Of a DNA stretch of 64,000 bases, positions 5,800 through 52,170 are shown one piece after another; the first letter of the stretch is position 1, and every line of letters begins with the position of its first letter. This DNA comes from Escherichia phage EP01: sequence record OM135583.1; one strand, written 5' to 3'. The notes beneath the pieces were generated by a model. That model was not told the origin of the DNA and did not search any database. It was given only the letters and a program-made list of their open reading frames with translations. A program made the position numbers and the translations under genes.

Positions 5800-6081
5800 T
5801 TAATTGAACAGTGGAGCGATGCGTTTCAGAAGAGTAGCAGCACCTTTGGCAAATTTTACATCATGAAAAACAGTTTCTTCTTCCGTTACAACACGAGCTT
5901 TAATGTTTTCACAATCCCAATTTTTGCGAACAATCTTCAAAAGCTGCAGTAAATCTTTACATTCAGCAATATCGATAACACATCCACGAGAATCTTCCAT
6001 TATCGCACGATAACCGTAAGCCATACCATAATCGTTGAAAGATTGTTCGATGATAATTAAGTTTTCCATTTTATTCTCCAA
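5800..6081 (-). CDS. hypothetical protein, 93 aa, MENKM-type N-terminus
   Basis: ORF directly downstream of a repeated promoter/RBS cassette. Confidence 0.5.
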   Translation of the reverse strand: MENKMENLIIIEQSFNDYGMAYGYRAIMEDSRGCVIDIAECKDLLQLLKIVRKNWDCENIKARVVTEEETVFHDVKFAKGAATLLKRIAPLFN

Positions 6082-6160
6082 GTTGTTTTCTGTATCAGTA
6101 GTTGATATTGATATAGTACCATAATCAACTACTGATGTATATAGTTTTATGAAAAAATTT
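6062..6160 (-). repeat. repeated promoter/stem-loop/RBS cassette, copy A
   Basis: Shares ttattctccaa...tgtatcagtagttgata...tatagtaccataa...gaaaaaatttt with copies B and C; 13-bp inverted repeat. Confidence 0.65.
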
Positions 6161-6166
6161 TAAACT

Positions 6167-6658
6167 TTATGCACAGCGAGCTTTGCTATAGTGTTTAATC
6201 CAACTTTCGGGAATGACTTTGTATGTTCCTAAAAATACTGCGTTGTACAACTTAACGCCATCTTCTACCCATTGATCGGTAATGTATGCACACATAGCGC
6301 GGGTACGGTGAACAACCCCTTCCTCACCTTCGGTAAATTCGAATTCACAAGGAGCAACGAACTTAATAGCCTGACCGAGTTTCCACTTAAAGTCTACACC
6401 TACATGCGAAGTATCAATTGTTTCAATTCCTTTAGCAGGAACAGCTTTCAAAAACGCAGATTCAAGAAATTTCGCACGAACATAGCCAAACTGAGGTTTA
6501 GACTTTCCATCTTTAGGAATGATACGCACTTTTACTTCAGAATCTTCATCTTTAACGCCGTGTTTAAGCTGAATGCTTACAATTTCAACCAATTTTCCTG
6601 CTGCTTTAGAACGGGATTTATCAGATACACGAGCAATTTCACCAATATTAATAATCAT
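6167..6658 (-). CDS. hypothetical protein, 163 aa (motB position)
   Basis: ORF track; early promoter upstream; synteny only. Confidence 0.5.
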   Translation of the reverse strand: MIINIGEIARVSDKSRSKAAGKLVEIVSIQLKHGVKDEDSEVKVRIIPKDGKSKPQFGYVRAKFLESAFLKAVPAKGIETIDTSHVGVDFKWKLGQAIKFVAPCEFEFTEGEEGVVHRTRAMCAYITDQWVEDGVKLYNAVFLGTYKVIPESWIKHYSKARCA

Positions 6659-6702
6659 AGTTATCTCTCACTTGTTAAAAAGATTTTATACTCCACAGGA
6701 CC

Positions 6703-6732
6703 ATTATACTCTGGTCCCAAGAGTTTGTAAAC
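6703..6732 (-). promoter_or_regulatory. early promoter upstream of the 163-aa gene
   Basis: GTTTAC-N17-GTATAAT on minus strand. Confidence 0.6.
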
Positions 6733-6802
6733 TTAATTTAATTCACTAAACGATGATTCAACACGGTAAATTTTCATTTTATTATCCTCAGTAGCTATGG
6801 TG

Positions 6803-6834
6803 TTATAATACCACAACTAACCGAGGAAGTAAAC
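6803..6834 (-). promoter_or_regulatory. early promoter
   Basis: GTTTAC-N17-GTATTAT on minus strand. Confidence 0.55.
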
Positions 6835-6840
6835 AACTTT

Positions 6841-7524
6841 TTATCGTTTTGTTGGAAGAGATAGAGGATCGCACTCTTCCTCTGACGGAGCATCTTCAAG
6901 ACCCATAGCATATCGCAAAGCATACTTCATCATCAAGATGTCTTTCGCACAGTCATGAATAGAATCATGTGCAACGAATCCATCTAAAGTTCCCTTTGGA
7001 AGAGGACACGTGGTCATATTACGAACAAGCAGAAGTGCTTCAATTCTGGTACGAATATCACGCTGATTCCAGAATTTACATGGTTCTAACTTAAATGTGT
7101 CAAGTTCATTCTCAGATACGCCATTAAGACGTTGAATATCGCGAATGAGATCGACTAAAATTGGAAAATCAAACGACATTCCACGGCACCAGCCTTGAGA
7201 TTTCCAAGGATCGATGTTATGTGCATTGATGTAATCATTAAATTTTACAATACCATCGATAGTGCTTACATCTTCATCTGATGGTGCAATATTTTTTCGA
7301 GCTTCAGGAGACTGATTTTTCCACCATTCGATAGTACTTTTAGTAAAAAGACGATGTCCTTTTTGGCTTTTTAAATCAAATTTGATTTTAATGCCGCGCG
7401 AAACTAATTCATCAAATGATTCAACTACTTCTGGATTAGGGTCAAAGGCAATAACAGCCAAATCAATAACAGCTGCCTTTTCACCGCTTCCCATTGTTTC
7501 AAAATCTATAATAAAATCAAACAT
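6841..7524 (-). CDS. dexA: exonuclease A (DEDD-type 3'-5' exonuclease), 227 aa
   Basis: DFETMG exonuclease motif near N-terminus; start trimmed to internal ATG at 7524 to give T4-like length. Confidence 0.8.
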   Translation of the reverse strand: MFDFIIDFETMGSGEKAAVIDLAVIAFDPNPEVVESFDELVSRGIKIKFDLKSQKGHRLFTKSTIEWWKNQSPEARKNIAPSDEDVSTIDGIVKFNDYINAHNIDPWKSQGWCRGMSFDFPILVDLIRDIQRLNGVSENELDTFKLEPCKFWNQRDIRTRIEALLLVRNMTTCPLPKGTLDGFVAHDSIHDCAKDILMMKYALRYAMGLEDAPSEEECDPLSLPTKR

Positions 7525-7777
7525 TAATAACCGCCTTATAAAGATGGCTAATTTCACCTAAAACGTAATCACTGATTGTAACAGTTTTCACTTCACCACA
7601 AAAGAATTCTAACGCAATCAAATCTCGTTCAATTTCTTCCAATTGAAGCATTAACTTACTAGACTCAATTTTCACAGTTTCATAATTTTTACTATAAGAT
7701 ATTTCATAAATTTCGCTTACTTTATCTTGAAGCAGATAAAACTGGTCTTTAGTTATTTCCACGAATAGCTTCCTCAA
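7517..7777 (-). CDS. hypothetical protein, 86 aa
   Basis: ORF track. Confidence 0.45.
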   Translation of the reverse strand: MRKLFVEITKDQFYLLQDKVSEIYEISYSKNYETVKIESSKLMLQLEEIERDLIALEFFCGEVKTVTISDYVLGEISHLYKAVINV

Positions 7778-7783
7778 ATTTAA

Positions 7784-9103
7784 TCATACGTAAAACACAT
7801 CATAACGACCACGTGTTACACCAACATAAAGAAGCTGCTGAGCTAGCTCAGCATCCGCATAATGAATACAAGGCGTATAGATAAAAGCACGATCTACAGA
7901 CATGCCCTGAGCTTTATGGAATGTTGATGCAGGAAGTGCTTTCACTTTACTAAACTGTGATTTAGCATCCCAAAAATCACTCCACGGAGCTTTTCCACCT
8001 TTATTCCAATTTTTGTAAGTTTCTGCAGTTTTACCTAAAAATAAGTTAAACTTATACAGCTCTTCATCAGATGAAATTATTTTAATCCTTTCACGATAAT
8101 ATTCATCATCGCCGTAAGTTTCTACTGTTAAATCCCAATGACGAATTAGATATTCTCCAGGAACACCACGAGCTTTAACAAATGTTGATGTATACTCTGC
8201 TTCTATAATACGAACTAATTGTCCGTTATTAAAAATAATTTCTGACACAGGCTTTCCATCAATTTTATATGTTTTAATTAATGGTTCCTGCATTACAATA
8301 ATTTCACCGACAATAAAATCTTTATCAGTTTCAAAAATCTTTTTACGAATAATGCTATTTAACTTGTCAACAGATTTATTCGTAAATGCCATTACGCGAT
8401 TTTCAAACAAATCATCTAGTGATTTAACGATTGAAAAATAATTTACCATAAAATCGCGTAAAGCGGTATCACCGGTAAATCCACGTACTCCATGCCCGTC
8501 AACAACTTTATCATAAATCCACTTACCGTTGCGAACATCAGTAGCTACATCAATAATAGGAGCATTACTGCGTTTAACTTCGGTGAGTTCACACTGATAA
8601 AAATCTTTGTGCGTAAAGAATGGACTGATATAAGCAGTATTTTCTCCTGGGTCAACAGGTCTAATTTGCTTATTATCACCTATTCCAATTATAGTACACC
8701 ATGGCGGGATGGTTGAAAGCAAAATTTTAAATAGCTTTCTATCATACATTGATACTTCGTCGCAGATTAATACTCTGCATTTAGCCAAATCCGGTACTTC
8801 TTTTTGCTCAAAAAGAACGTTTTCTTCGTATGTTACTGGGTTAATTTTGAGAATACTGTGAATAGTACTCGCTTCTTTCCCTGACAGTTTTGAAAGAATC
8901 TTTTTAGCTGCATGAGTAGGAGCTGCTAAAATAATTCCAGTTTCGCCTGTAGATATTAAAGCTTCAATGATGAACTTAGTAAGAGTAGTCTTACCGGTAC
9001 CAGCAGGTCCATTAATAGTTACATGATGTTTCTTTTCTTTAATAGCCCTCATAACAATGTTAAAGGCATTTTTCTGGCCTTCTGTCAAATCATCAAATGT
9101 CAT
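7784..9103 (-). CDS. dda: Dda DNA helicase (SF1B), 439 aa
   Basis: Walker A GPAGTGKT; length and synteny match T4 Dda. Confidence 0.92.
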   Translation of the reverse strand: MTFDDLTEGQKNAFNIVMRAIKEKKHHVTINGPAGTGKTTLTKFIIEALISTGETGIILAAPTHAAKKILSKLSGKEASTIHSILKINPVTYEENVLFEQKEVPDLAKCRVLICDEVSMYDRKLFKILLSTIPPWCTIIGIGDNKQIRPVDPGENTAYISPFFTHKDFYQCELTEVKRSNAPIIDVATDVRNGKWIYDKVVDGHGVRGFTGDTALRDFMVNYFSIVKSLDDLFENRVMAFTNKSVDKLNSIIRKKIFETDKDFIVGEIIVMQEPLIKTYKIDGKPVSEIIFNNGQLVRIIEAEYTSTFVKARGVPGEYLIRHWDLTVETYGDDEYYRERIKIISSDEELYKFNLFLGKTAETYKNWNKGGKAPWSDFWDAKSQFSKVKALPASTFHKAQGMSVDRAFIYTPCIHYADAELAQQLLYVGVTRGRYDVFYV

Positions 9104-9411
9104 CGTAAATTCCCTGCAATTGGTATACTAACAATACGCCCAGTATCTAAAATTCGCCGATATAATCTTTGTGTGTCTACATCAGGCTTAACATGTTTAA
9201 CTTCTATTTTATTAAACCAAAACTTGCGTGGAGTCTCAACTAATCTCGGAATTCCCATACCTAAAGCTAGTCGATACTGCTCTTTAAGAGTTGTAAAAAC
9301 TTTATCAGCAATCTCCCTTTCAAAAAATACAGCAGGACGATGTTCATCAAGAGGAACAGGCACCGCAAATCCATCTTTATCTCTATACACTATCGCATAT
9401 ACATAAAACAT
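9100..9411 (-). CDS. hypothetical protein, 103 aa
   Basis: ORF track; overlaps dda start by 4 nt. Confidence 0.5.
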   Translation of the reverse strand: MFYVYAIVYRDKDGFAVPVPLDEHRPAVFFEREIADKVFTTLKEQYRLALGMGIPRLVETPRKFWFNKIEVKHVKPDVDTQRLYRRILDTGRIVSIPIAGNLR

Positions 9412-9412
9412 A

Positions 9413-10159
9413 TTATCCTCGGATAAGTTTAAAAATTGAACAATTTAACGGATATCCTCTTTTCAGTTTAAGTTTATCAATAAAAGACAAGTTTTGATAC
9501 CGCTCTACACCTTGAATAATTTTATCACACATATCATATTGCATTTCTGCTTCTGACAACTTTTTCACAGTTTTCCAATCCGAGCCTTTAAGAAGAACGT
9601 TCAATTTAACAACTTCAGCGCCTTCTGCTATACGAGAACCATCAATACGAGCTTTAAGCGCTATAATCGTTAGCTTAATGTCAGATGTTTGTTTTGACTT
9701 AGAAAGCTGAGAAATGTGCTCAATTCGGTTTTCACGTTTTTTCTGTATAGCTTTAATTTGATTATAAGTCTTTTTGATTTTAGCCCATTTCTTTTCATCT
9801 AAATTTAGTTTATGAACTTTTTTCGCAGATGAACGACCAATTCGCAAAGCAAATAAATCACGCTTTTCAATCAACTCTTCTAAAGTATAATCAGAACGAA
9901 ATGTATTATACTTTTTCTTTACTGCAATAACATTCCCTTTAATATATCCAACGTTATTATCAAAACGTTCTAATGATAATTTCTCTCCTTCAATACGATT
10001 ATCAAAAGGTTCTCCCGAGTAAGCGCAAACTTTCTGATCTAAAATGTTCTTAATGTAATTGAAGTCTAAGTTAAAATCTTTAGAACGTCTTTTGGCAGAT
10101 GCCTGAGTATGCTCTAAACGACGTGTAATTTTACGAATTTGATTTTTAGACAGTTTCAT
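9413..10159 (-). CDS. basic hypothetical protein, 248 aa (srd position)
   Basis: Lys/Arg-rich ORF with early promoter upstream; synteny only. Confidence 0.5.
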   Translation of the reverse strand: MKLSKNQIRKITRRLEHTQASAKRRSKDFNLDFNYIKNILDQKVCAYSGEPFDNRIEGEKLSLERFDNNVGYIKGNVIAVKKKYNTFRSDYTLEELIEKRDLFALRIGRSSAKKVHKLNLDEKKWAKIKKTYNQIKAIQKKRENRIEHISQLSKSKQTSDIKLTIIALKARIDGSRIAEGAEVVKLNVLLKGSDWKTVKKLSEAEMQYDMCDKIIQGVERYQNLSFIDKLKLKRGYPLNCSIFKLIRG

Positions 10160-10186
10160 ATTTTTCTCACGGACGGGTTAACTACT

Positions 10187-10219
10187 TATACTATAACATT
10201 TTTACTTCAGCTTGTAAAC
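10187..10219 (-). promoter_or_regulatory. early promoter upstream of the 248-aa gene
   Basis: GTTTAC -35 with TATAGT -10. Confidence 0.55.
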
Positions 10220-10275
10220 AACTTTATGAAAAATGCTTTAAAACTTTCATGGTATAATGAATCTAAGTCCTTCCA

Positions 10276-10878
10276 TTATAGATTAAATCCTTCAAAATCA
10301 AGAGTATAGATAGTGTATGTTGAATACTTTTTATATTCATATCTATCCGCAATTCTAAATACACTTCCAGCTGGTATCATTACTTCTTGTTCATCTGAAA
10401 CTAATTCCATATTACGATAGCGATGGCTATCCGGAAACTTAAAACTTGGACTATATTCTTTACAACGTAGAGCTTTTATAGCATACTCCTGGAAATTAAA
10501 TACCATAGGAGCTTTGAATTCAAAAATAACTTGTGTATTGTATTCTAATCCAGAAGCAAAATGTAAAGCTATATTTTTATCATATGAAGCTGATACTACT
10601 TTATCAAATGTAATAATATCAATTCCTTGATTTAACGCCTGCTTAGTCTCAACTGGAACACCTCTCCAAAGAGGTTTATCGTTTGGAACCAAACGAGATT
10701 TGATTATTTCATTTAACCAAGAATGATCGTCTGGCTTATTAGTAATACAATGAATTAAAAGTTCAATTTCGGATAAATTAAATCCTTCAGAAAGTAATTC
10801 TTCACGAATAGAAGCACGCACCGATGCATCCATTGATTTGATTTTAAAATCTTTTAATTGCATTGCTGAATATTTCAT
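10276..10878 (-). CDS. modA: mono-ADP-ribosyltransferase, 200 aa
   Basis: R (LWRGV), S-x-S (VSASY) and E-x-E (EQEVMIP) ART motifs; size and synteny. Confidence 0.75.
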   Translation of the reverse strand: MKYSAMQLKDFKIKSMDASVRASIREELLSEGFNLSEIELLIHCITNKPDDHSWLNEIIKSRLVPNDKPLWRGVPVETKQALNQGIDIITFDKVVSASYDKNIALHFASGLEYNTQVIFEFKAPMVFNFQEYAIKALRCKEYSPSFKFPDSHRYRNMELVSDEQEVMIPAGSVFRIADRYEYKKYSTYTIYTLDFEGFNL

Positions 10879-11510
10879 TCAACTACCTCAATATCATACA
10901 CTTTAAATGTTCCAAACGAATCGTGTAATTTTTCTTTTGAAATAGAAGTTATTTTATACTTTCCAATTGGAATCATCCATTCTTGTTCACGCACAATCAT
11001 CATTAAGTTATCAGTACGTTCTGAATCTAATCCATCAGTATCTTCATATGTATACTTAAACTCAGTATTAGGAGAAGAAAGTATAATATCGCTGATATGG
11101 TCAGAGTAATTAAAAGCTTTATCAGTTTTTAAGCGAAGTACTATTTCAGTGAAATACTCAACATAAGAAAAACCGCACGCTGTGTGCAAACTAGTAGTAA
11201 ATGAATCTACCCTATTCGTTGAAAACACTTCTCCGACTTGTAAATCTTTAATGAGTTCTTTTGTCGATTTTGATATACCACGATATAGCTGATAAGGTGA
11301 TTTAGTTAAATGCTTTTTAACGATTTTATTCAACTGCCGGTGAAGAGCTTCATTCTTTTTGGCTTCCATACATTGCCAAAGAACTGACTGCTCGAAGTCA
11401 GTAAATTTTTCACAGACCTTTTTATACATATCATATTGAAAATCAACGCTTTCAGCTTTTATAGATAACTGTTCAACATCTGCAAGATTAATAATCATGA
11501 TAGCCTCCAT
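10875..11510 (-). CDS. modB: mono-ADP-ribosyltransferase, 211 aa
   Basis: R (LYRGI), STN and EQEWMIP motifs; tandem paralogue of modA. Confidence 0.72.
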   Translation of the reverse strand: MEAIMIINLADVEQLSIKAESVDFQYDMYKKVCEKFTDFEQSVLWQCMEAKKNEALHRQLNKIVKKHLTKSPYQLYRGISKSTKELIKDLQVGEVFSTNRVDSFTTSLHTACGFSYVEYFTEIVLRLKTDKAFNYSDHISDIILSSPNTEFKYTYEDTDGLDSERTDNLMMIVREQEWMIPIGKYKITSISKEKLHDSFGTFKVYDIEVVE

Positions 11511-11523
11511 ATACTTCAGAAGC

Positions 11524-11554
11524 TATCATATCATTGTTAGGAAGGAAAGTAAAC
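11524..11554 (-). promoter_or_regulatory. early promoter upstream of modB
   Basis: GTTTAC-N17-TATGAT. Confidence 0.55.
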
Positions 11555-11565
11555 AACTTTTTGAA

Positions 11566-11748
11566 TTATTTTGCCCAGGGAGCCCAGGGCGGAGGGTCAA
11601 GATGGTATGAAGCTAGTTCTTCTAGAAGAGCATCTGGGGCTTCAATTCCATAATTCTGTAATACTATACGGTATTCTTTCTTATAATCACTAGAATCATT
11701 CTGGATATTCGTAGAATGATTATCTTCTAACATCTCAAATAAATCCAT
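11566..11748 (-). CDS. hypothetical protein, 60 aa
   Basis: ORF track. Confidence 0.4.
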   Translation of the reverse strand: MDLFEMLEDNHSTNIQNDSSDYKKEYRIVLQNYGIEAPDALLEELASYHLDPPPWAPWAK

Positions 11749-11756
11749 ATTAATTC

Positions 11757-12227
11757 CTAGCGATAAAAACCAAAATAACGATTAGTTTCAATAATCTTTC
11801 TTTCTTCTTCGGATATTCTCCAGCGTAGTCCAACATCAAAATGAGCCCAGACCATCTTAACGAATGCATTTATATCTTTAATATCTTCAATAATGAATGT
11901 TTTACTTTTAGAAGGTTGACTCGCTAATTTAACTTTATCGTCTTCAAATAGGTCAAAAAGACCATATTCATGAGCTCTTTTATAGCCTTTGATAGTTAAA
12001 GCCTCAGAAGAAGAAAATGGTGAATCAGTATTCTGCAAAATATCTTCAGTATGCTTTATAATTAGAATAACATTTTCTGGATATTTTCTTTCTTTTATAT
12101 CTTTAATTAAAAGGTCCGGATTTTCTGCTAAAGGAATAATTAATGAGCAATTTTTGTCAAGCGTATTTACTGATTTACCTTCTTTAGACATAAATTCTAT
12201 TGAATAATGTTTTGCTACTTCAATCAT
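11757..12227 (-). CDS. hypothetical protein, 156 aa
   Basis: ORF track. Confidence 0.5.
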
Positions 12228-12380
12228 GCGATTTCCTCTTGCCTACTAATGGGCCGTCAGGAATTTTGTTTTCCTGGATATATTTCTCATTTTCTTCCAT
12301 CATTTTACTGCCAATTTTAAGAAGCAAATCTAGTGCTTCATTTGCTTTAGCCTTGGCCTCTTCTAACGTCATATCTCTGT

Positions 12381-13606: not shown

Positions 13607-13630
13607 AGTGTTCTCCTCTATAAGATAATT

Positions 13631-13662: not shown

Positions 13663-13664
13663 TG

Positions 13665-17631: not shown

Positions 17632-17796
17632 TTACTCTTCTTTTTCTTTAGATTCCTCTTTTTTCTTTTTAGGAATCTGTTCAGGACCTTTATTTACTAC
17701 AGCGCCTGACGTTGTTCCAGTAGAGATATTTTCAGGATTACCACCTGAATCTCCAGCTACCATATCTTCTTTAATAAATTCTTTAAACGTTTTCAT
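17632..17796 (-). CDS. small protein with internal-protein-like N-terminus (MKTFKEFIKE), 54 aa
   Basis: Hand-translated ORF below track cutoff. Confidence 0.45.
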   Translation of the reverse strand: MKTFKEFIKEDMVAGDSGGNPENISTGTTSGAVVNKGPEQIPKKKKEESKEKEE

Positions 17797-18160: not shown

Positions 18161-18414
18161 TATTTTATTTCCTCAAGTTCGTTAATCAATAAAAGTTCTC
18201 TGACGCTAAAAACAAAGAAAAATGTGTTCCCATCAACCAGAGCATGACCGCTAATAGAACACCCTCTGCGGAATTTAGAAACTTCACAATCTAGAACTGT
18301 AAAGGGTTTTAATCCTATGACTTTAGCTGTGCGTCTATTCAGTTCACAACCACTTGCGAATTTTTCCAAATCTTCTTCTGATTTAAACTGATATTCTCTA
18401 TTAACTAGCATCAT
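18160..18414 (-). CDS. hypothetical protein, 84 aa
   Basis: ORF track; early promoter upstream. Confidence 0.5.
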   Translation of the reverse strand: MMLVNREYQFKSEEDLEKFASGCELNRRTAKVIGLKPFTVLDCEVSKFRRGCSISGHALVDGNTFFFVFSVRELLLINELEEIK

Positions 18415-18498
18415 TTTCTTTTCTCCGCGATTAGCTGATAGAATTACTATAACACAACTCTATCAGCTTGTAAACTACTATTTTACTAGCATCAATAA

Positions 18499-18721: not shown

Positions 18722-18904
18722 TTATCCTCGGCAATCCACTTCGCATACTTTCTTGTCATCAATGAAAGCTTTAACTAGTGCTTTATTAACTTCTGCGTAT
18801 TGAGTAGTAGCCCATTGAACGTCATCTTTCATCATTGTGATTTCTTTAGTAAACATGCTTTCATTCTTAAACCACCCCATAAAAACTACCTTTACCAATT
18901 CCAT
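18722..18904 (-). CDS. dmd: Dmd antitoxin-like protein, 60 aa
   Basis: 60-aa ORF directly downstream of gene 41, as in T4. Confidence 0.65.
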   Translation of the reverse strand: MELVKVVFMGWFKNESMFTKEITMMKDDVQWATTQYAEVNKALVKAFIDDKKVCEVDCRG

Positions 18905-18933
18905 AACAATCTCCTCATTTAACCAACAAGACT

Positions 18934-18963
18934 ACTATACCATAGTCCTGTCAGCTTGTAAAC
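18934..18963 (-). promoter_or_regulatory. early promoter upstream of dmd
   Basis: GTTTAC-N-TGGTATAGT. Confidence 0.6.
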
Positions 18964-24613: not shown

Positions 24614-25006
24614 TCACTTAGTCAAATTTTTTACACATGAATTATAAGAATTCACTACATACTCCATTGGAGCATTTTTACCAGTACGCCATTGATAATT
24701 ATTAGCCCAATTAGCCCAAAGTTCAGCACAGTAGCTTTCAATTTTTTCTTCACGTGTAATCACATCTGAATTACGATATGCTTGGGCAGATTCATCTGGA
24801 CGAATAGCTTCGTCAAAATTCGCCTGCATTTGTTCTACTGTCTGTTTTGGAGCCTCTTTATAACACTTAACATTAGGATTATAAAATTTGCTTGAACAGT
24901 TTACAATTTTTCCTACATCAGACTGATTTACTACTGGTCCTTGAGCTACACAACCAGTAAGACCCAATGCAATAACCAAAATAGCGATTTTCATTTCATT
25001 CTCCAA
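24614..25006 (-). CDS. predicted lipoprotein, 130 aa, MENEM N-terminus
   Basis: Signal peptide with lipobox LTGC; downstream of repeated promoter cassette. Confidence 0.55.
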   Translation of the reverse strand: MENEMKIAILVIALGLTGCVAQGPVVNQSDVGKIVNCSSKFYNPNVKCYKEAPKQTVEQMQANFDEAIRPDESAQAYRNSDVITREEKIESYCAELWANWANNYQWRTGKNAPMEYVVNSYNSCVKNLTK

Positions 25007-25085
25007 ATCCGTATCAGTTGATAGTTATATAGTACCATAAAGGAACCGGAATGTAAACCATTTTGTGAAAAAATTTTTAATAAAT
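24992..25085 (-). repeat. repeated promoter/RBS cassette, copy B
   Basis: See copy A. Confidence 0.65.
25028..25058 (-). promoter_or_regulatory. early promoter within repeated cassette copy B
   Basis: GTTTAC ... GGTACTATA. Confidence 0.55.
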
Positions 25086-25140
25086 TCAAAGGGCCCAGAA
25101 TCATCTATTTTTCCTAAGTATAGATTTATATTATTTGTAT

Positions 25141-25162
25141 GAAAAAGGGACCCGGAGGTCCC
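25141..25162 (-). terminator. intrinsic terminator downstream of gene 43
   Basis: GGGACC-UCCG-GGUCCC hairpin followed by U5. Confidence 0.65.
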
Positions 25163-25175
25163 TAGATTTATTCTA

Positions 25176-29896: not shown

Positions 29897-30583
29897 TTAA
29901 AAGTCGTGGGTAGAATCAGCTTCAAGAGCTACTACATAATTCGCGTGTTCACCTTCAAATTTAGCAGCGCCTTGTTTACCTTTTGCCCAGAGCAGAAGTT
30001 TATAATTTCCTGGTTGCATTTTCATATTTGCCATATTGATAATGAAATTAAATGTATTTTCACCATCATAATCACCAAGAGTCAAAGAATATTTAACACG
30101 GGTCAAAGCAGAATCTTCTACTTTATTAAAACCGTTAATTACGATTTTACCTTCTTTTACTGTGATAGCGATTGTATCAATCTGCAGACCACGAGATACA
30201 CGCAACAGCTGTTGAAGGTCTTCAGCTTTAATTTCAGTAACAACAGATGCTACCGGGAATGGAATTGGTTTATTAGGAGCAACTACTGTACTCGGATCGG
30301 CTGCTGGCCAAAAAATTGTTGAACGGGCATCAGCAATTTTAATATTTCCATCTTCTGACTGGGAAATTTCTGCATCGTCATTAACTAGGGACAGAATACC
30401 GAGAAAACCGTTCAAATCGTAAATTGCTACATCAAAATCAATAGTGTCAGAAATATTTGCTTCCGCATAAGTTGTACCATTAACTGCGCGAGTCATAATA
30501 AATTGACCGGATTTAAGCATAATACCAGAGTTAATAGTAGCGAAATTTTTGAGCAAAGCAGTAGTATCTTTAGACAGTTTCAT
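29897..30583 (-). CDS. 45: sliding clamp, 228 aa
   Basis: 228 aa; sequence and synteny. Confidence 0.95.
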   Translation of the reverse strand: MKLSKDTTALLKNFATINSGIMLKSGQFIMTRAVNGTTYAEANISDTIDFDVAIYDLNGFLGILSLVNDDAEISQSEDGNIKIADARSTIFWPAADPSTVVAPNKPIPFPVASVVTEIKAEDLQQLLRVSRGLQIDTIAITVKEGKIVINGFNKVEDSALTRVKYSLTLGDYDGENTFNFIINMANMKMQPGNYKLLLWAKGKQGAAKFEGEHANYVVALEADSTHDF

Positions 30584-44480: not shown

Positions 44481-44490
44481 TTGTCACCAA

Positions 44491-45139: not shown

Positions 45140-45140
45140 A

Positions 45141-46613: not shown

Positions 46614-46665
46614 GTTCTTCTCACTTGGTTAATGATTTATGCTCCGAGCCATCCTTGGCTTTAAA

Positions 46666-47667: not shown

Positions 47668-47695
47668 ATTAATCTCCTCAGTAGAAAGTAAGAAC

Positions 47696-47725
47696 ATTAT
47701 ACCACATCCTTGTGGCAAAGTAAAC
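47696..47725 (-). promoter_or_regulatory. early promoter, near-identical to the one at 2418-2447
   Basis: ataccacatccttgtggcaaagtaaac; about 28 of 30 nt shared with the 2421-2450 copy. Confidence 0.7.
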
Positions 47726-48753
47726 TAGTTCAGTGCATTTAGTGCATTGTTCAGTTTAGAACGTTGCTTCGTAAGATTTTTGACTTTTTCTTGAGCTTTT
47801 TCTAGCATCTTTTCAGCTTCTAACACTTCATTAGTTGCTTTAACTAGTTCATCATCTACTGCTTTAAGAGAATTCTCAATCGCATCTGCATGCCATTTTT
47901 CAACAGGTTTAAGACTCGGATTTTCAACAGGAAGAAAACTCACTTTATTAAGTTTACATGCATCTATATTGCTTGAGCTATACATCCAAAATTTAGGATC
48001 GTTTGATGAGTAATTGGATAAATTTAAATTTAAGTTATCTTGCACTTCCTGCTTTTTCTCTTGCGGGACTTCGTCCTTTCTCAAAAAATCGTATTTAAAT
48101 GAAACGATCATATCAAGTTCATATGTTGTTGTGTCTAATTTAAATCGCTCAAAACGAGGTAAAATCTTAGACTGAACATCGGCAACAACATCCATATACT
48201 TAAATGCTTCTGTCAACTGCGATTTAAGGCATTCGCAAATTGAAAGAGAATTTTTTGTATTAGGTTTAAAGCTAATTCGTGCAGTTCTATTATTTTCTTT
48301 TAATGGTCTTACTTCCATCTGAAGAGTATAACCATCAAATTTCAGATTCTTTAAGTTAATATCAGAACCTTTTAATCGACTCGCAGTTGATAAAATTTGC
48401 TTTAATTGTCTACGGAACAGAGCAATAAATCTCCATTCAATACGATAATGATTTGGATTGAAAAATCCAGATGATAAATCGACCTTACTTTGACCAACGC
48501 CTTGAACAAATAGAGGATTTTTATAATCAATAGTTTTACAGAAATCGGTGAGCTGCTCACGAGCAGTCATTTGCGTAATATACCCTGCTTTACTAAAATT
48601 ACGCACCCATTCACTGCTATTCGTATACTTAAAGTGATGAATAACACGATTAACTTTATCAGGGTCTAAATTATTTTCACACAAAAATGTCATAACATCA
48701 CGAGTATAACTGGCATTACGAACCTTATCTTCAATTTGAGAACGAGTTTTCAT
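47725..48753 (-). CDS. hypothetical protein with C-terminal coiled coil, 342 aa
   Basis: ORF track. Confidence 0.55.
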   Translation of the reverse strand: MKTRSQIEDKVRNASYTRDVMTFLCENNLDPDKVNRVIHHFKYTNSSEWVRNFSKAGYITQMTAREQLTDFCKTIDYKNPLFVQGVGQSKVDLSSGFFNPNHYRIEWRFIALFRRQLKQILSTASRLKGSDINLKNLKFDGYTLQMEVRPLKENNRTARISFKPNTKNSLSICECLKSQLTEAFKYMDVVADVQSKILPRFERFKLDTTTYELDMIVSFKYDFLRKDEVPQEKKQEVQDNLNLNLSNYSSNDPKFWMYSSSNIDACKLNKVSFLPVENPSLKPVEKWHADAIENSLKAVDDELVKATNEVLEAEKMLEKAQEKVKNLTKQRSKLNNALNALN

Positions 48754-48761
48754 AGTGTTCC

Positions 48762-49667
48762 TTAAGATTTAAGTAAATCAACAATTTTAATTAATTTTTC
48801 ACGCTCAGATTTAGCTTTATTACTCAATCCAGATAGTCTGAAAATTTCATCGTCATACTGTTGAATAGAAATATTCAGCTCTTCAATTTGCTTATTAAAA
48901 TAATCAATTTGTTCAGAATGTTTTTCATTACTACGAACTGGTACAGGTTTCGTAAGCAATTTAGTTGAACTGGATTCATCCGGGCGATAAATCAAAATAC
49001 AATTTGAACCAATCGGGCATTTTGTACCAGATGAATATTCTAATGTTCCAGCTTCTTTTAAAACTTCAAAAGCTAAACAGAGATGATGCCCCATATTAAC
49101 ATAATCTGTAGAGTGAGCTCTGATGTAATAATCATCTCCACGAATACTAAATTTAAAGCATTTAAGGTCTTCTGTATTATTGGTCTTAAAAATCATTTGT
49201 TTATCTAGACCTTTAGCTAATCGAGCGCCCAATGCTAATAATCGTCGTTGATTTTCCCACAAATCCGCAATCATTTGATCGAATGATAATTTCGGCATTA
49301 GTCGACCATAAAGGTCATATCCTTTATTATAATTACGAAGGATTTCACTCGCATTAATACGAGACAATGCTCCAATTTTATTAAGGGCTTTCATAATGCG
49401 ATTAGATAAACTCATTCCAGATCCGCTTGTTCGCTGTAAATGTTTTTCTAATCCAAAGCCAATATCAACTTTAAACTTATCTAAAATTTCGGCATGAACA
49501 TCTCTGTCAATAACATTCAAATCCAAAGTTGGGTTAAATCTATGAAAAAATTTATCTGGCTCTCCACGACGAAATACAGTCCATTCATTCATCATTTTTT
49601 TATTAACTAAAGATTTAATTACTGCATTGACATTATTAATTACTACTGACATATTTTCCTCACTCAA
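48762..49667 (-). CDS. hypothetical protein with C-terminal coiled coil, 301 aa
   Basis: ORF track. Confidence 0.55.
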   Translation of the reverse strand: MSEENMSVVINNVNAVIKSLVNKKMMNEWTVFRRGEPDKFFHRFNPTLDLNVIDRDVHAEILDKFKVDIGFGLEKHLQRTSGSGMSLSNRIMKALNKIGALSRINASEILRNYNKGYDLYGRLMPKLSFDQMIADLWENQRRLLALGARLAKGLDKQMIFKTNNTEDLKCFKFSIRGDDYYIRAHSTDYVNMGHHLCLAFEVLKEAGTLEYSSGTKCPIGSNCILIYRPDESSSTKLLTKPVPVRSNEKHSEQIDYFNKQIEELNISIQQYDDEIFRLSGLSNKAKSEREKLIKIVDLLKS

Positions 49668-50061
49668 TTTTACTAATTACGTGGAATAAGATTGAACAGA
49701 CTATATAAGTACCACATATAGATTGAACTAATGCCATTCCAAAGAACCAAACAATATTATCAAACAGTGTCTGTTTTACGTCGAAAGGACGTAAACTTAC
49801 AGTAATATTATCACCTTTTTCTATTGAAGAATACATCTCTGGGGAAATATATTCACTAAATCTATAACCGTCTTTAAGTTCATATACAGCAATAAACGAT
49901 AAACTAGACCCCTTTCCTTGTGTTCCTGTAATGGTATTAACTACAGTAACATCATAATCTTTATAGTGCATATAATCATTAATTGCGTAATAACCATATG
50001 CAACTACTACACATAAACAACATATCAATAAATTCAATCTTTTAATTATCAACTGTTTCAT
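49660..50061 (-). CDS. membrane protein (N- and C-terminal TM), 133 aa
   Basis: Hydrophobic segments at both ends. Confidence 0.5.
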   Translation of the reverse strand: MKQLIIKRLNLLICCLCVVVAYGYYAINDYMHYKDYDVTVVNTITGTQGKGSSLSFIAVYELKDGYRFSEYISPEMYSSIEKGDNITVSLRPFDVKQTLFDNIVWFFGMALVQSICGTYIVCSILFHVISKIE

Positions 50062-50116
50062 AATAATCTCAATTAAAAGTGCTTAGAACCATTATACCAT
50101 CCTTGGTATAAAGCGG

Positions 50117-50644
50117 TTATGCGAGTACCGTCTTTAACCGTTCTTCAAACTTCCGAAGAGTATTTTGGCGTTCAGCTCTTTGCTTTTTGTAAGTTTCAAT
50201 ACGCTCTGAAATGAGAGAGTATCGTTCATTTACTGATTCTTTCATAAAATCAGGAATTTTACGAGAAGCTTTAATCTCATCAAATTTATCAATAACAGCT
50301 TGCTCTTCAGCAATTAAGTTATCATACATTAAAATATCTTTCTTGATGAACTCAATATCTTCTTGAGTTACACGAGATAATTTAGATGCTTTATCCTTTT
50401 TGTACTGTTCGTTAGTATCACGAGACCAGTGTAATGTACGATTTTTATTCGTATTTTTGTAAATTTCGACAATACCAATCTCATCAATAATAACGATCCA
50501 ATTCCAACGGGATTTGTAAATTTGTCCTCCATCAACAGTGATTTCACCTCCGATTGAGATGTCGTTAAAGAACTTGCTTTGTGCTTCAGATTTAAATTTA
50601 CCATCATTGTAATTTACCAAGTTGAAAATATCTTTAGCGTTCAT
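50117..50644 (-). CDS. hypothetical protein, 175 aa
   Basis: ORF track; early promoter upstream. Confidence 0.5.
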   Translation of the reverse strand: MNAKDIFNLVNYNDGKFKSEAQSKFFNDISIGGEITVDGGQIYKSRWNWIVIIDEIGIVEIYKNTNKNRTLHWSRDTNEQYKKDKASKLSRVTQEDIEFIKKDILMYDNLIAEEQAVIDKFDEIKASRKIPDFMKESVNERYSLISERIETYKKQRAERQNTLRKFEERLKTVLA

Positions 50645-50670
50645 TTTCTGTTCCTCCGTAGTTGATAGTT

Positions 50671-50701
50671 GTATAGTACCACAGAGGAACAGTCTTGTAA
50701 A
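50671..50701 (-). promoter_or_regulatory. early promoter
   Basis: Plus strand tatagtacca...gtaaac. Confidence 0.55.
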
Positions 50702-50704
50702 CCA

Positions 50705-51019
50705 CTAAAAGAAACTTCTTTCACAATTTTTTCCACTGAACCATGCGCTCACTGCTTTCTTAGTCTCAGGAGCAGTGTTATCCATAAACCATTCAAAGGC
50801 AGCCTTTTTATGATTCTGGAGGGCTTCTCGGGCTTTAATCTGCTCACGGTCTATTAACACTAACATATGAGCCTTTCTTGTCACCATGGGCTTCTTATGA
50901 TTTTTTGAATACTCCCAGTCATTTGTCCATCGCATTGTCGTTGCGAATTGAAATACAGCTTCTTTAATCTTAGTTTCGTAAATTTCACGAGCCTTTGAGT
51001 ATAACATCACTACCTCCAT
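50705..51019 (-). CDS. hypothetical protein, 104 aa
   Basis: ORF track. Confidence 0.45.
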   Translation of the reverse strand: MEVVMLYSKAREIYETKIKEAVFQFATTMRWTNDWEYSKNHKKPMVTRKAHMLVLIDREQIKAREALQNHKKAAFEWFMDNTAPETKKAVSAWFSGKNCERSFF

Positions 51020-51108
51020 TCACCTGTTTAATTCTAGTCATCTTTTTAATGGCAGTCCATATAATCTATTTCTGAACTGCCTTTTTGTCATAGAAGTCCT
51101 CTTATGAA

Positions 51109-52089
51109 TTATTTCAGAAGAGTAACCTCAGCAATTTCTTCCCAACCGTTTTTGTCGGTCATAATAAAGTCAGCAAGATAAAGAGCAGTACGCAGTGAAA
51201 CATTTCGTAAACGATTAACATTAACTTTCATCCATGATAATGCTTTATAAGTTTCTTCATCAGAAAGACCGCGCTTTTGCATCATGTCAGTTGAAAGAAT
51301 AACATCTTCAACCCTGACCATAATTTCTTCATTAGTGTGAACACCCAAATCCAAATAAACTGAGCGGGACACTAATGCTTGTAAGTGTGGAGCAAGTTTA
51401 GTACCACGGTCTAATTCGCGGTCAATGTCAACGTTTGTGATAAAAACAATCGTTCCTTTAAATTCAAACTCACGGTCAATGCCTTTTTCTTCTAAGTAAG
51501 AAGATGCAGTGCTCCAGCAGACTTTACGGGTCTCTCCAGTGTCCAGAGCAGCTTTTAGAAGATTAAGAATGTCCATATCAGAGAAAACATCCACATCATC
51601 AATCAAAAGGACAGAATTCTCTTCACGATTATTCCAAAGCTGTTCATAAAGACCAATACCAGAGATTTTACCATTAATGCTTTTATATTCAATGTATCCA
51701 TTATCATTTGCTTTATTTAAAGCTTTATCTAAAGAATACGTTTTACCAATACCTGCTGCGCCAGAGATAATTAATGAACGAATATTTCCATTAATAATAC
51801 CATTCGTCATCATTCCCATAACATTAAATCTTTTATTAATGCGGGTTTTCATATCTTCATATGATTCTTTAACTTCTTCAACTTTTACACCATCATATGA
51901 AATATCTGATTTGTAAACCCAAACACCGCGACGTTTACCGTCAATTTCAACAAAAACTTTACCATCTCCTTGTGCATCTACCGGAGCATTATCTGGGAAC
52001 CATTCGCCTAAAAGCTCAAAAGTTCCAGAGATTTCTTTACCGAAGTAGATACCCTTATTGATAGTTACAGTTTTCATTTTATTCTCCAA
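51109..52089 (-). CDS. P-loop ATPase (Walker A GAAGIGKT, Walker B LLIDDVD), 326 aa
   Basis: Walker motifs; MENKM N-terminus downstream of repeated promoter cassette. Confidence 0.6.
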   Translation of the reverse strand: MENKMKTVTINKGIYFGKEISGTFELLGEWFPDNAPVDAQGDGKVFVEIDGKRRGVWVYKSDISYDGVKVEEVKESYEDMKTRINKRFNVMGMMTNGIINGNIRSLIISGAAGIGKTYSLDKALNKANDNGYIEYKSINGKISGIGLYEQLWNNREENSVLLIDDVDVFSDMDILNLLKAALDTGETRKVCWSTASSYLEEKGIDREFEFKGTIVFITNVDIDRELDRGTKLAPHLQALVSRSVYLDLGVHTNEEIMVRVEDVILSTDMMQKRGLSDEETYKALSWMKVNVNRLRNVSLRTALYLADFIMTDKNGWEEIAEVTLLK

Positions 52090-52170
52090 ATCTGTATCAG
52101 TAGTTGATAGTTGTATAGTACCATAAAGCTTTATGCTTGTAAACCGTTTTGTGAAAAAATTTTAAAATAA
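52076..52170 (-). repeat. repeated promoter/RBS cassette, copy C
   Basis: See copy A. Confidence 0.65.
52115..52144 (-). promoter_or_regulatory. early promoter within repeated cassette copy C
   Basis: GTTTAC-N17-GTACTAT. Confidence 0.55.

What the first reader, a model, noticed from the sequence alone, without database searches (positions are those of the whole stretch)
6062..52170. Repeated promoter/stem-loop/RBS cassettes that also fix the first codons (MENKM) of unrelated genes
Three ~90-bp near-identical elements (6062-6160, 24992-25085, 52076-52170) each contain an early promoter, a stem-loop and the ribosome-binding site. The three downstream genes, a 93-aa protein, a lipoprotein and a P-loop ATPase, all start MENKM or MENEM. 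Shorter relatives of the cassette occur at 50671-50701, 56323-56353, 2418-2447 and 47696-47725. These resemble the mobile promoter-early-stem-loop cassettes described for T4-type phages and mark recombination-prone module boundaries.
Basis: partly seen in the sequence, partly recalled or inferred. Interest (0 to 1): 0.45.

Follow-up and report, generated by a model that had tools for sequence, protein, structure and literature searches.

The report
Repeated T4-type early promoter/RBS cassettes
Three roughly 100-bp look-alike stretches in this T2/T4-like phage are copies of a known reusable "early promoter + leader + ribosome-binding site" cassette. They sit where small genes come and go between related phages, and the supposed shared protein start (MENKM) is just the ribosome-binding site misread as codons.

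Summary
The window is the rIIA-to-ipIII early region of a Tequatrovirus (T2/T4-like phage), with genes on the minus strand.

**What is real.** The three elements form a sub-family beyond the generic early-promoter consensus. In leave-one-out profile searches the omitted copy scores 49-68 bits, against 21 bits or less for ordinary early promoters. T4 carries seven copies, three of them at the same loci (motB/cef, imm.1, nrdC.10).

**Anatomy.** Each copy has an A/T-rich UP element, a -35 (TTTACA; degraded to TATACA at 6062), a hypervariable 17-nt spacer, TGG-TACTAT, an unstructured leader, then GGAGAAT(A/G)AAATG.

**What is wrong.**
- "MENKM/MENEM" is TTG-GAG-AAT-A/GAA-ATG, which is the Shine-Dalgarno sequence plus spacer. 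The true starts are the ATGs (MENLII, MKIAIL, MKTVTI).
- GGAGAATAAAA is the published optimal RegB/S1 cleavage site.
- There is no common internal stem-loop; the stem-loops differ from copy to copy.
- 2418-2447 and 47696-47725 are a separate promoter pair.

**Module boundaries.** All three loci show gain or loss of a neighbouring small ORF with the junction at a cassette edge. One ORF module is 93% identical in a Salmonella Gelderlandvirus whose flanks are only 68-76% identical.

**Verdict.** These are PeSL-type cassettes, already described for T4-like phages. Interest is low to moderate.

The parts
6067..6165 (-). Cassette copy 1, between motB and orf89. UP element about 6142-6165; degraded -35 TATACA 6136-6141; TGG + -10 TACTAT 6113-6118; 13-bp inverted repeat 6094-6106 / 6124-6136 bracketing the -10; leader with a 6-nt AAAACA insertion; RegB/SD site GGAGAATAAAA 6069-6079; ATG 6067-6069.
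   Evidence: Sequence; alignments; fold -23.6 kcal/mol, z -4.7; exact GGAGRAYARAA match; fails the simple sigma-70 scan because of its weak -35.
5800..6069 (-). orf89, an 89-aa ORF of unknown function starting MENLIIIEQ. It is driven by copy 1. In T4 it is reduced to an 11-codon remnant.
   Evidence: Translation and window/T4 alignment; no Pfam hit.
24992..25085 (-). Cassette copy 2, upstream of imm.1. UP element about 25058-25085; -35 TTTACA 25052-25057; TGG + -10 TACTAT 25029-25034; leader lacking one ACT; SD GGAGAATGAAA 24994-25004 (one mismatch to the RegB consensus); ATG 24992-24994.
   Evidence: (TTTACA-17-TACTAT with TG).
25146..25163 (-). Gene 43 terminator hairpin, about 55 nt upstream of copy 2. 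The intervening stretch (about 25086-25145) includes GGGCCC at 25092-25097, in the segment the alignment places opposite the terminator of copy 3. This is possibly a decayed terminator.
   Evidence: alignment columns (the decayed-terminator reading is inference).
24614..24994 (-). imm.1 (126 aa, DUF5481; MKIAILVIALGLTGC lipoprotein-type signal).
   Evidence: Pfam PF17578, E 2.4e-71; T4 annotation.
52075..52170 (-). Cassette copy 3, upstream of nrdC.10. T-run/UP about 52144-52170; -35 TTTACA 52138-52143; spacer AGCATAAAGCTTTATGG (contains the small palindrome AAGCATAAAGCTT); -10 TACTAT 52115-52120; RegB/SD site GGAGAATAAAA 52077-52087; ATG 52075-52077.
   Evidence: 96% identical to the T4 nrdC.10 copy.
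52171..52197 (-). Terminator hairpin of ORF161 (GGGGGGCCCTAGAGGTCCCC + T-run), abutting copy 3. Together with the promoter it is a near copy of the T4 gene-32 terminator/frd.3 promoter composite.
   Evidence: 11-pair stem; 97.8% over 89 nt to T4 146837-146925.
51109..52077 (-). nrdC.10 (322 aa, weak P-loop/STAND NTPase hits), starting MKTVTINKG.
52191..52776 (-). Inserted 'promoter + ORF161 + terminator' module, absent from T4. ORF161 is at 52206-52691 and has its own early promoter TTTACT-17-TATAAT at 52738-52766. The nrdC.11 terminator at 52796-52815 lies outside this span. In the window the module is flanked by a 39-nt direct repeat of T-run/UP/-35 sequence.
   Evidence: T4 overlap -39; ORF161 is annotated as a Mod-like ADP-ribosyltransferase in other records; the same 587 nt are 93% identical in STML-198.
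50644..50714 (-). Partial cassette, the nrdC.8 promoter. It shares -35 to about +20 with the family, then goes straight into the SD GGAGG. A 15-bp hairpin (arms 50678-50692 / 50648-50662) brackets the -10, and its 3' arm contains the SD.
   Evidence: nhmmer 28-36 bits; fold -25.4 kcal/mol, z -5.5.
56286..56370 (-). Marginal relative: the early promoter upstream of a mobD.5-like ORF, sharing ATACTATACAAC-ATC.
   Evidence: 11-21 bits; alignment.
2418..2449 (-). Not a family member. This rIIA.1 early promoter is the twin of 47696-47727 (31/32 identical), with a CCACA-AGGA-TGTGG hairpin in the spacer.
   Evidence: family D4; absent from the nhmmer hit lists.
47696..47727 (-). Not a family member. 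This nrdC.4 early promoter is the twin of 2418-2449.

Best explanation
The three elements are paralogous copies of a composite T-even early-expression cassette, a sub-family of the PeSL-type terminator/promoter/RBS units. Each copy is modular:
1. Often a terminator or its relic.
2. An A/T-rich UP element plus -35 (TTTACA).
3. A freely varying 17-nt spacer.
4. An extended -10 (TGG-TACTAT).
5. A conserved, unstructured, G-poor initial transcribed sequence and leader (ACAACTATCAAC(TAC)TGATACRG).
6. GGAGAAT(A/G)AAATG.

How it most likely works. Host sigma-70 RNA polymerase fires from the promoter immediately after infection. The open leader and the strong SD give efficient translation of whatever ORF follows. 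The SD module is the optimal 11-nt RegB/S1 target (GG^AGAAUAAAA), so the phage's own RegB nuclease, which is encoded in this window, then cuts the SD and shuts the message off. The result is a burst followed by inactivation.

Evolutionary role. The 40-100 bp of shared sequence, together with the terminator T-runs and the ATGAAAA-type gene starts, act as homology patches. Small accessory ORFs are inserted, deleted or swapped through them without disturbing neighbouring expression.

Shown here: the anatomy, the family membership, the exact match to the RegB consensus, the indel junctions at cassette edges, and the transfer of cassette-bounded modules between genera. Inferred: promoter activity, the position of the transcription start, RegB cleavage at these particular sites, and recombination through the cassettes as the actual mechanism.
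For: - **Family is real.**
- **Promoter calls.** TTTACA-17-TACTAT with TG for two copies.
- **T4 census.** Seven strong copies at motB/cef, imm.1, nrdC.10, e.8, frd.3, motA and denB/ndd.6, plus weaker ones at trna.4 and nrdC.8. The same seven loci are occupied in ECO07P1.
- **Distribution.** 550 phage records carry a match, with 6-9 places in most of the listed complete Tequatrovirus genomes.
- **RegB site.**
   - GGAGRAYARAA has only two exact matches in 64 kb and both are cassette SDs.
   - Durand et al. give GGAGAAUAAAA as the efficient T4 RegB/S1 site (PMC1702504; PMC3014915).
   - T4 has 8 exact sites, 5 of them in this family.
   - The leaders are unstructured, as RegB requires.
   - regB lies in the window at 59832-60293.
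- **Boundaries.**
   - T4's orf89 deletion starts at ATGGAAAA.
   - The 78-85-aa ORF indel is bounded by ATGAAAAT.
   - The ORF161 module is flanked by a 39-nt repeat.
   - The ORF161 terminator/promoter junction is 97.8% identical to T4's gene-32 terminator/frd.3 promoter.
   - The ORF161 module is 93% identical in a Gelderlandvirus with 68-76% flanks and a truncated cassette at the junction.
   - The e.8 cassette plus gene is 92% identical between RB69 and T4 over 533 nt.
   - Different genes follow the denB-proximal cassette in T4 and in ECO07P1.
- **Fit to the literature.** The PeSL definition and its application to the T4/PST pair (PMC2839356; PMC4122927).
Against: - No transcript, cleavage or recombination data exist for this phage.
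- e6062 has a poor -35 (TATACA) and fails the simple promoter scan.
- e24992 deviates by one base from the RegB consensus.
- Two of the three indels are explained by 8-nt microhomology at the gene start, not by cassette-to-cassette exchange.
- In the window-versus-T4 comparison, promoter-bearing gene boundaries are only marginally enriched for indel junctions: 8 of 19 against 21 of 98, Fisher p = 0.057.
- The conserved blocks coincide largely with functional modules, so part of the similarity could be constraint instead of shared descent.
- I could not see which T4 sites are listed in Durand's Figure 3A.
Confidence: 0.8

Rival explanations
1. Constraint only. The copies look alike because each was independently selected toward the same optimum (strongest UP/-35/TGn/-10 promoter, best RegB/S1 site). 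Under this view they are neither related by duplication nor involved in recombination.
For: - The conserved blocks map onto known functional modules, while the functionally neutral spacer differs completely between most copies.
- Exact GGAGAATAAAA also occurs at three T4 early genes outside the family.
- Enrichment of indel junctions at promoters is only borderline.
Against: - About 25 nt of leader with no known function (ACAACTATCAACTACTGATACRG) is conserved as well as the hexamers are.
- The nrdC.10 and frd.3 copies share the identical 'neutral' spacer, and in this window also the terminator (97.8% over 89 nt).
- The ORF161 insertion is flanked by a 39-nt repeat of cassette sequence.
- A truncated cassette sits at a transfer breakpoint between genera.
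- Orthologous copies switch spacer type between phages: the imm.1 spacer is e.8-like in L012 and nrdC.8-like in T4.
Confidence: 0.12
2. First reader's coding reading. The cassette supplies a common N-terminal peptide (MENKM/MENEM), translated from the TTG, to unrelated proteins.
For: An ORF finder that takes the first ATG/GTG/TTG after a stop codon extends all three ORFs to that TTG.
Against: - The TTG overlaps the GGAG Shine-Dalgarno sequence and has no SD of its own.
- The ATG lies 6 nt after GGAG.
- T2 and T4 annotations start at the ATG.
- The TTG is TTC in STML-198 and ACG in the motA copy, while GGAG...ATG is kept.
- The 11 nt are the published RegB/S1 RNA target.
Confidence: 0.01
3. The conserved leader is a structured cis-regulatory RNA (riboswitch-like or protein-binding hairpin) shared by a regulon.
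For: The leader is conserved among 7 loci and across genera. A weak 4-5-bp palindrome UAUCA-ACUAC-UGAUA exists.
Against: - Own-promoter leaders fold no better than shuffled sequences (z +0.83, -0.01, -0.45).
- There are no Rfam hits in the whole window.
- The ACT indel changes the putative loop and stem freely between orthologues.
Confidence: 0.05

Closest known systems
PeSL (promoter-early stem-loop) cassettes of T4-like phages (Arbiol et al. 2010, PMC2839356; Comeau et al. 2014, PMC4122927)
   Same: - A composite of an A/T-rich region, a sigma-70-type early promoter, an associated stem-loop, and SD plus ATG at the 3' end.
- Repeated many times per genome and concentrated in the hyperplastic early regions.
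- Adjacent to ORF insertions, deletions and replacements.
- The T-even promoter variant TTTACW-N17-TAYWAT is exactly what is seen here.
- Degraded 'half' copies occur.
   Different: - The three copies are a tighter sub-family in which the initial transcribed region, the leader and the SD are also conserved.
- Stem-loop position is not uniform: around the -10, abutting upstream, or 55 nt away.
- Mini-circle formation and terminator/promoter activity were shown for RB49/phi1, not for these copies.
Phage T4 early promoters (the 'UP/-35/TGn/-10' class; Hinton 2010, PMC2988021)
   Same: UP element, GTTTAC-type -35, 17-nt spacer, TGn-extended -10. Three of T4's seven family members lie at the same loci as the window's copies.
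   Different: Only about 7 of T4's early promoters share the extra ~45 nt downstream of the -10. e6062 has lost the canonical -35.
RegB/S1 endoribonuclease target sites of T4 (Durand et al. 2006, PMC1702504)
   Same: The cassette SD module GGAGAATAAAA is identical to the stated T4 optimum and matches the consensus GGAGRAYARAA. It is intergenic, on early transcripts, and in unstructured RNA.
   Different: Cleavage at these particular sites in this phage is inferred, not shown. The imm.1 copy has G at position 8.
Internal-protein (IP) locus repeats of T-even phages (Repoila et al. 1994, as cited in PMC2839356)
   Same: Repeated early promoter/RBS units flank variable small genes. In the IP case the repeat really does extend into the first ~10 codons (the MKT(Y/F)(Q/K)EFI capsid-targeting sequence), as seen in this window at 62525-63447.
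   Different: In the IP genes the shared codons are functional and translated. In the three cassettes the 'shared codons' lie upstream of the true start.
Morons / integron cassettes
   Same: A single ORF that travels with its own promoter and terminator (the ORF161 module).
   Different: No integrase and no attC-like site. Exchange appears to rely on the phage's general recombination through short homologies.

Membership tests
PeSL (T-even type) | [quoted passage not shown] | tested here: met
   AAAATTTTTTCA(C/T)AAAA is present in all three copies.
PeSL (T-even type) | Early promoter TTTACW-N17-TAYWAT | tested here: met
   TTTACA-17-TACTAT with TG in e24992 and e52076. e6062 has TATACA-17-TACTAT, a degraded -35.
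PeSL (T-even type) | Associated stem-loop (terminator-like; just upstream of the promoter in PST/T4, or between or overlapping the boxes in RB49/phi1) | tested here: inconclusive
   - e52076: an 11-pair terminator abuts the UP element.
- e6062: a 13-bp hairpin overlaps the -10.
- e24992: the only stem-loop is the gene 43 terminator 55 nt upstream, plus a possible relic.
PeSL (T-even type) | SD and start codon of the downstream gene at the 3' end | tested here: met
   GGAG-N6-ATG in all three copies.
PeSL (T-even type) | Repeated in the genome, in hyperplastic regions, next to ORFs that differ between close relatives | tested here: met
   Seven copies in T4 and in ECO07P1. Neighbouring ORF indels at all three loci. 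Statistical enrichment over other gene boundaries is only borderline.
PeSL (T-even type) | Promoter and terminator activity; formation of mini-circles by PeSL-PeSL recombination | not testable with these tools
   Needs reporter assays and PCR across predicted circle junctions.
RegB/S1 strong cleavage site | 11-nt GGAGRAYARAA (T4 optimum GGAGAAUAAAA) | tested here: met
   Exact in e6062 and e52076, which are the only two exact matches in the window. e24992 has one mismatch.
RegB/S1 strong cleavage site | Site is single-stranded and in an intergenic early transcript | tested here: met
   Leader folds are indistinguishable from shuffled sequences. The position is between an early promoter and the ATG.
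RegB/S1 strong cleavage site | RegB-dependent cut between G and A in vivo | not testable with these tools
   Requires primer extension in regB+ and regB- infections.
Known structured RNA families (Rfam) | Covariance-model match at gathering score | tested here: not met
   0 matches in the 64-kb window.

The most novel reading that the evidence does not exclude
Two readings are not excluded.

1. The conserved leader plus GGAGAAUAAAA may be more than a shared promoter relic. It could be a dedicated portable 'burst-then-kill' timer that puts about seven otherwise unrelated immediate-early genes, including the middle-mode activator motA, under one RegB-controlled shut-off. In that case the published T4 RegB 'consensus' would partly reflect paralogy of this cassette.

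2. Separately, the hairpins that bracket the -10 in about 40% of the window's early promoters, several of them sequestering the SD, could form a general insulation device. Read-through transcripts from upstream would be translationally silent, and only transcripts started at the gene's own promoter would be translated.
Probability: 0.25. Interest if true: 0.45.

Novelty: already known. Interest (0 to 1): 0.25.

Why it matters
The result mainly tidies up a misreading. The apparent shared N-terminus is the ribosome-binding/RegB site, and annotation pipelines that accept TTG starts will mis-call these genes by four codons.

It also gives clean, sequence-level examples of how T-even phages gain and lose small accessory genes at terminator/promoter/RBS junctions. 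One example is a Mod-like ADP-ribosyltransferase module shared at 93% identity between Tequatrovirus and a Salmonella Gelderlandvirus.

Finally, it links the PeSL concept to RegB-mediated early mRNA shut-off. That link could be tested easily in T4 itself.

Tried and rejected
- **TTG start / shared peptide.** Rejected (see rival explanations).
- **Structured leader RNA.** Folds of the own-promoter leaders are no better than shuffled sequences, and Rfam gives nothing.
Rejected by the leave-one-out profile searches and the pairwise identities.
- **A common stem-loop.** Not found; its position and sequence differ per copy.
- **IMG/VR pattern scan.** Only 16 loci from 6 contigs. They were useful for the imm.1 and cef loci but too few for a population test.
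- **Literature.**
   - A search for the T4 gene names together with 'early promoter' found nothing.
   - The MMBR T4 genome review is not held.
   - No supplements are held for the 2014 PeSL paper.
   - So I could not check whether exactly these copies are listed in PST Figure 3 or in Durand's Figure 3A.
- **Indel junctions versus promoter-bearing boundaries** (window against T4). Odds ratio 2.7, p = 0.057. This is suggestive only.
- **Label correction.** Some of my script and notebook labels were wrong and are corrected here. The partial copy at 50644-50714 precedes nrdC.8, not nrdC.9. The weak T4 copy at 73505-73611 precedes trna.4, not ipI.

Full report
**Context**

A 4-kb probe from the window matches 764 phage records, nearly all Escherichia, Shigella or Yersinia Tequatrovirus, with the best hit at 98%. 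Comparison with the annotated T2 and T4 genomes shows that the window is the early region from rIIA to the internal-protein genes. Essentially all genes are on the minus strand. The three elements are therefore read on the minus strand. They lie upstream of:
- an 89-aa ORF between motB and cef (5800-6069);
- imm.1, just downstream of DNA polymerase gene 43 (24614-24994);
- nrdC.10 (51109-52077).

Pfam confirms that the three products are unrelated: no hit for the 89-aa ORF, DUF5481 with a lipoprotein-type signal for imm.1, and weak P-loop NTPase hits for nrdC.10.

Yes for the repeat. The three stretches align from an A/T-rich block to the start codon. Global identity over that span is 77%, 77% and 66%. 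For the other 207 pairs among 21 early-promoter regions in the window it is 57 ± 4.5%, with a maximum of 73%.

A profile built from all three would be circular, so I ran leave-one-out searches. The omitted copy is always the top non-training hit (48.7, 62.9 and 67.6 bits; E 4e-14 to 6e-20). A partial relative at 50644-50714 scores 28-36 bits, and every other early promoter scores 21 bits or less.

'Near-identical' is too strong, though. The ~15 nt between -35 and -10 are unrelated in each copy. e6062 carries a 6-nt leader insertion, and its -35 is TATACA, not TTTACA, so it fails a simple sigma-70 scan. The other two copies are called as TTTACA-17-TACTAT with an upstream TG.

**The MENKM claim**

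The 3' end of the cassette reads TTGGAGAATAAAATG (TTGGAGAATGAAATG at imm.1). An ORF finder that accepts TTG extends each gene to that TTG, which yields (M)ENKM or (M)ENEM. Several points show this is wrong:
- GGAG is a Shine-Dalgarno sequence placed 6 nt before the ATG.
- The TTG has no SD of its own.
- The T2 and T4 annotations start imm.1 and nrdC.10 at the ATG.
- In other family members and in Salmonella phage STML-198 the triplet is ACG or TTC, while GGAG…ATG is retained.

The true N-termini are MENLIIIEQ, MKIAILVIAL and MKTVTINKG.

[quoted passage not shown] In the 64-kb window the consensus has only two exact matches, and both are cassette SDs. The imm.1 copy has one mismatch. In T4 there are eight exact sites, all just before early-gene ATGs, and five belong to this family.

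**Stem-loops**

RNA starting at the predicted transcription start folds no better than shuffled sequence for all three copies (z +0.83, -0.01, -0.45). Across the whole element the picture differs by copy:
- e6062 has a strong hairpin, with 13-bp arms at 6094-6106 and 6124-6136 bracketing the -10 (-23.6 kcal/mol, z -4.7).
- e24992 has nothing significant (z +0.84). The gene 43 terminator lies 55 nt upstream.

So a stem-loop is associated with each cassette, but it is not a shared internal feature.

**The shorter relatives**

- 50671-50701 is part of the nrdC.8 promoter and is a true partial copy. It is identical from the -35 to about +20 and then runs straight into its SD.
- 56323-56353 is marginal.
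- 2418-2447 (rIIA.1 promoter) and 47696-47725 (nrdC.4 promoter) match each other at 31 of 32 positions. They share only the generic boxes with the cassette and never appear in the profile searches.

**The family elsewhere**

The same profile finds seven strong copies in the complete T4 genome:

| T4 locus | Note |
|---|---|
| motB/cef | same locus as window copy 1 |
| imm.1 | same locus as window copy 2 |
| nrdC.10 | same locus as window copy 3 |
| e.8 | full copy |
| frd.3 | 5' half only, fused to the gene-32 terminator |
| motA | full copy |
| denB/ndd.6 | full copy |
| trna.4, nrdC.8 | weaker copies |

The same seven loci are occupied in ECO07P1, a close relative of the window phage. A blastn of one copy hits 550 phage records, with 6-9 places in most of the listed complete Tequatrovirus genomes and single copies in RB69 and a few others.

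The alignment shows a modular, mosaic structure. The UP/-35 block, the TGG-TACTATACAACTATCAAC(TAC)TGATAC(A/G)G block and the GGAGAATAAAATG block are conserved, while the spacers are scrambled. Three observations argue for exchange between copies and not just common constraint:
- The nrdC.10 and frd.3 copies share the same spacer.
- Orthologous imm.1 copies carry e.8-like or nrdC.8-like spacers in different phages.
- The window's nrdC.10 leader differs from its T2 and T4 orthologues at two linked positions that match the e.8/motA type.

**Module boundaries**

1. *motB-cef.* T4 keeps the cassette but has lost 208 nt of orf89. This leaves an 11-codon frameshifted remnant, and the junction lies in an ATGNAAAA microrepeat right at the cassette's ATG. 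Other contigs show either the same deletion or the intact ORF.

2. *gene 43-imm.1.* Four IMG/VR contigs carry an extra 78-85-aa ORF (MKIVMGCLAV…) between the cassette and imm.1. Homology to the window breaks and resumes at ATGAAAAT(C/T)G(C/T)TAT, which is the shared first codons of both genes.

3. *nrdC.11-nrdC.10.*
   - The window and T2 carry a complete 'promoter + ORF161 + terminator' module that T4 lacks. In the window it is flanked by a 39-nt direct repeat of T-run/UP/-35 sequence.
   - Its terminator plus the following promoter are 97.8% identical over 89 nt to T4's gene-32 terminator/frd.3 promoter.
   - ORF161 is a Mod-like ADP-ribosyltransferase paralogue found at 90% identity or more in only 43 records.
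   - In Salmonella phage STML-198 (Gelderlandvirus) the same 587 nt, from the -35 of its promoter to the start of its terminator, are 93% identical to the window. The flanking nrdC.11 and nrdC.10 are only 68% and 76% identical, and a truncated cassette (-10 to SD) sits at the right-hand junction.

4. *RB69 e.8.* The RB69 e.8 cassette plus gene is 92% identical to T4 over 533 nt, bounded by a terminator on one side and the next promoter on the other.

As a caution, I also compared all 22 window/T4 indels with gene boundaries. Promoter-bearing boundaries have a junction within 40 nt in 8 of 19 cases, against 21 of 98 for the rest (odds ratio 2.7, one-sided p = 0.057). This is a trend, not proof. 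Two of the three local indels also need only 8-nt microhomology.

**Mechanism**

The best-supported reading is a portable immediate-early expression cassette with three working parts:
- a very strong UP/-35/TGn/-10 promoter of the T4 early class (PMC2988021);
- an open leader and a strong SD;
- an SD that doubles as the optimal RegB/S1 target, so the message is inactivated once RegB accumulates.

regB is present in the window at 59832-60293, and its own SD GGAGAATAACA turns up as a one-mismatch hit.

The repeated sequence, the terminator T-runs and the ATGAAAA-type gene starts supply the short homologies through which T-even recombination adds or removes small ORFs. This is the PeSL model of Arbiol et al. 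and Comeau et al., who explicitly extended it to the T4/PST pair.

Promoter use, the exact transcription start, RegB cleavage and the recombination pathway are inferences.

**Novelty and score**

The kind of element, its presence in T4-type genomes and its proposed evolutionary role are all published. The copies are orthologous to T4 promoters, and the SD motif is the published RegB site.

What this analysis adds is modest:
- correction of the coding artefact;
- recognition of a tight seven-member sub-family whose 3' module equals the RegB optimum;
- clear junction-level examples, including a transfer between genera.

I rate it already known, with interest 0.25.

Noticed in passing
window minus strand, e.g. 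60293-60352, 55478-55541, 50648-50692, 18904-18962, 18414-18475, 11510-11553, 6770-6833, 6670-6731, 6094-6136: Ten of 24 early-promoter-like sites have a significant hairpin (z < -2) whose arms bracket the -10 hexamer, against 10.5% of random 65-nt controls (Mann-Whitney p = 0.011). In several of them (the regB promoter, nrdC.8 promoter, 6833, 11553; also 16352, whose hairpin at z -1.5 is not among the ten) the 3' arm contains the SD. Read-through transcripts would therefore hide the SD, while transcripts started at the gene's own promoter would not. This corresponds to the 'stem-loop overlapping the -10' PeSL class of RB49/phi1 and follows the same logic as the known T4 e/49/soc hairpins.
   Followed up: partly
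window 5800-6069 (-) vs T4 6483-6557: The window keeps an intact 89-aa ORF between motB and cef. T4 and several other phages have a 208-nt internal deletion that leaves frameshifted mini-ORFs (MENSLKVLILF*, MEIR*, MENLLKVLLLF*) still preceded by the full cassette.
   Followed up: yes
window 52206-52691 (-); L022 (STML-198) 2416-3001: ORF161 is a third, short Mod-like ADP-ribosyltransferase paralogue, 26-33% identical to the homologues annotated as ADP-ribosylases in Klebsiella, Enterobacter and other Escherichia phages. It is present at >=90% identity in only 43 phage records. With its promoter it is shared at 93% nucleotide identity with a Salmonella Gelderlandvirus whose flanking genes are 68-76% identical, which points to a recent transfer between genera.
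   Followed up: partly
L011 636-872, L012, L014, L017 (IMG/VR contigs), locus equivalent to window 24994: Some T-even phages carry an extra 78-85-aa predicted membrane/secreted ORF (MKIVMGCLAVCLVALAA…) between the cassette and imm.1. It is absent from the window and from T4. In L017 it contains an internal 7-codon duplication.
   Followed up: partly
window 17632-17796, 62525-63103, 63130-63447 (-): Three genes start with the internal-protein capsid-targeting-type sequence MKT(F/Y)(K/Q)EFI: a gp61.1 homologue, IPIII and another IP. Here a repeated 5' unit really does extend into the first ~10 codons. The window/T4 indel in the IP locus is flanked by a 57-nt overlap. The CTS-like start on gp61.1 was not pursued.
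   Followed up: no
window 2418-2449 and 47696-47727 (-): These twin early promoters (31/32 identical) precede rIIA.1 and nrdC.4, with a CCACA-AGGA-TGTGG hairpin inside the spacer. The T4 denB/ndd.6 cassette carries a similar spacer (ACCACAAGGACCGTGGT), which suggests that spacers are exchanged between promoter sub-families.
   Followed up: partly
T4 (L002, L003, L020, L021): 6567, 55330, 70633, 73524, 129863, 130263, 146014, 167029: T4 has only eight exact GGAGAATAAAA sites. All lie just before early-gene ATGs, and five are in this paralogous cassette family. The published 'T4 consensus' for RegB/S1 sites may therefore partly reflect shared ancestry of these leaders.
   Followed up: partly
L025 (RB69 72886-73585) vs T4 70200-71000: The e.8 cassette plus the e.8 gene is 92% identical between RB69 (Mosigvirus) and T4 over 533 nt. 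The left edge is at a terminator T-run and the right edge at the next hairpin-bracketed promoter. I did not measure RB69-T4 identity elsewhere, so whether this is unusually high is untested.
   Followed up: partly
L023 (ECO07P1) 30194-30273 vs window 50644-50714: The nrdC.8-type promoter/hairpin (identical spacer and SD arm, CTGTTCCTCTGTGG…CTACGGAGGAACAG) is itself repeated upstream of an unrelated small ORF in the ndd region of ECO07P1. It behaves as a second reusable cassette type.
   Followed up: no
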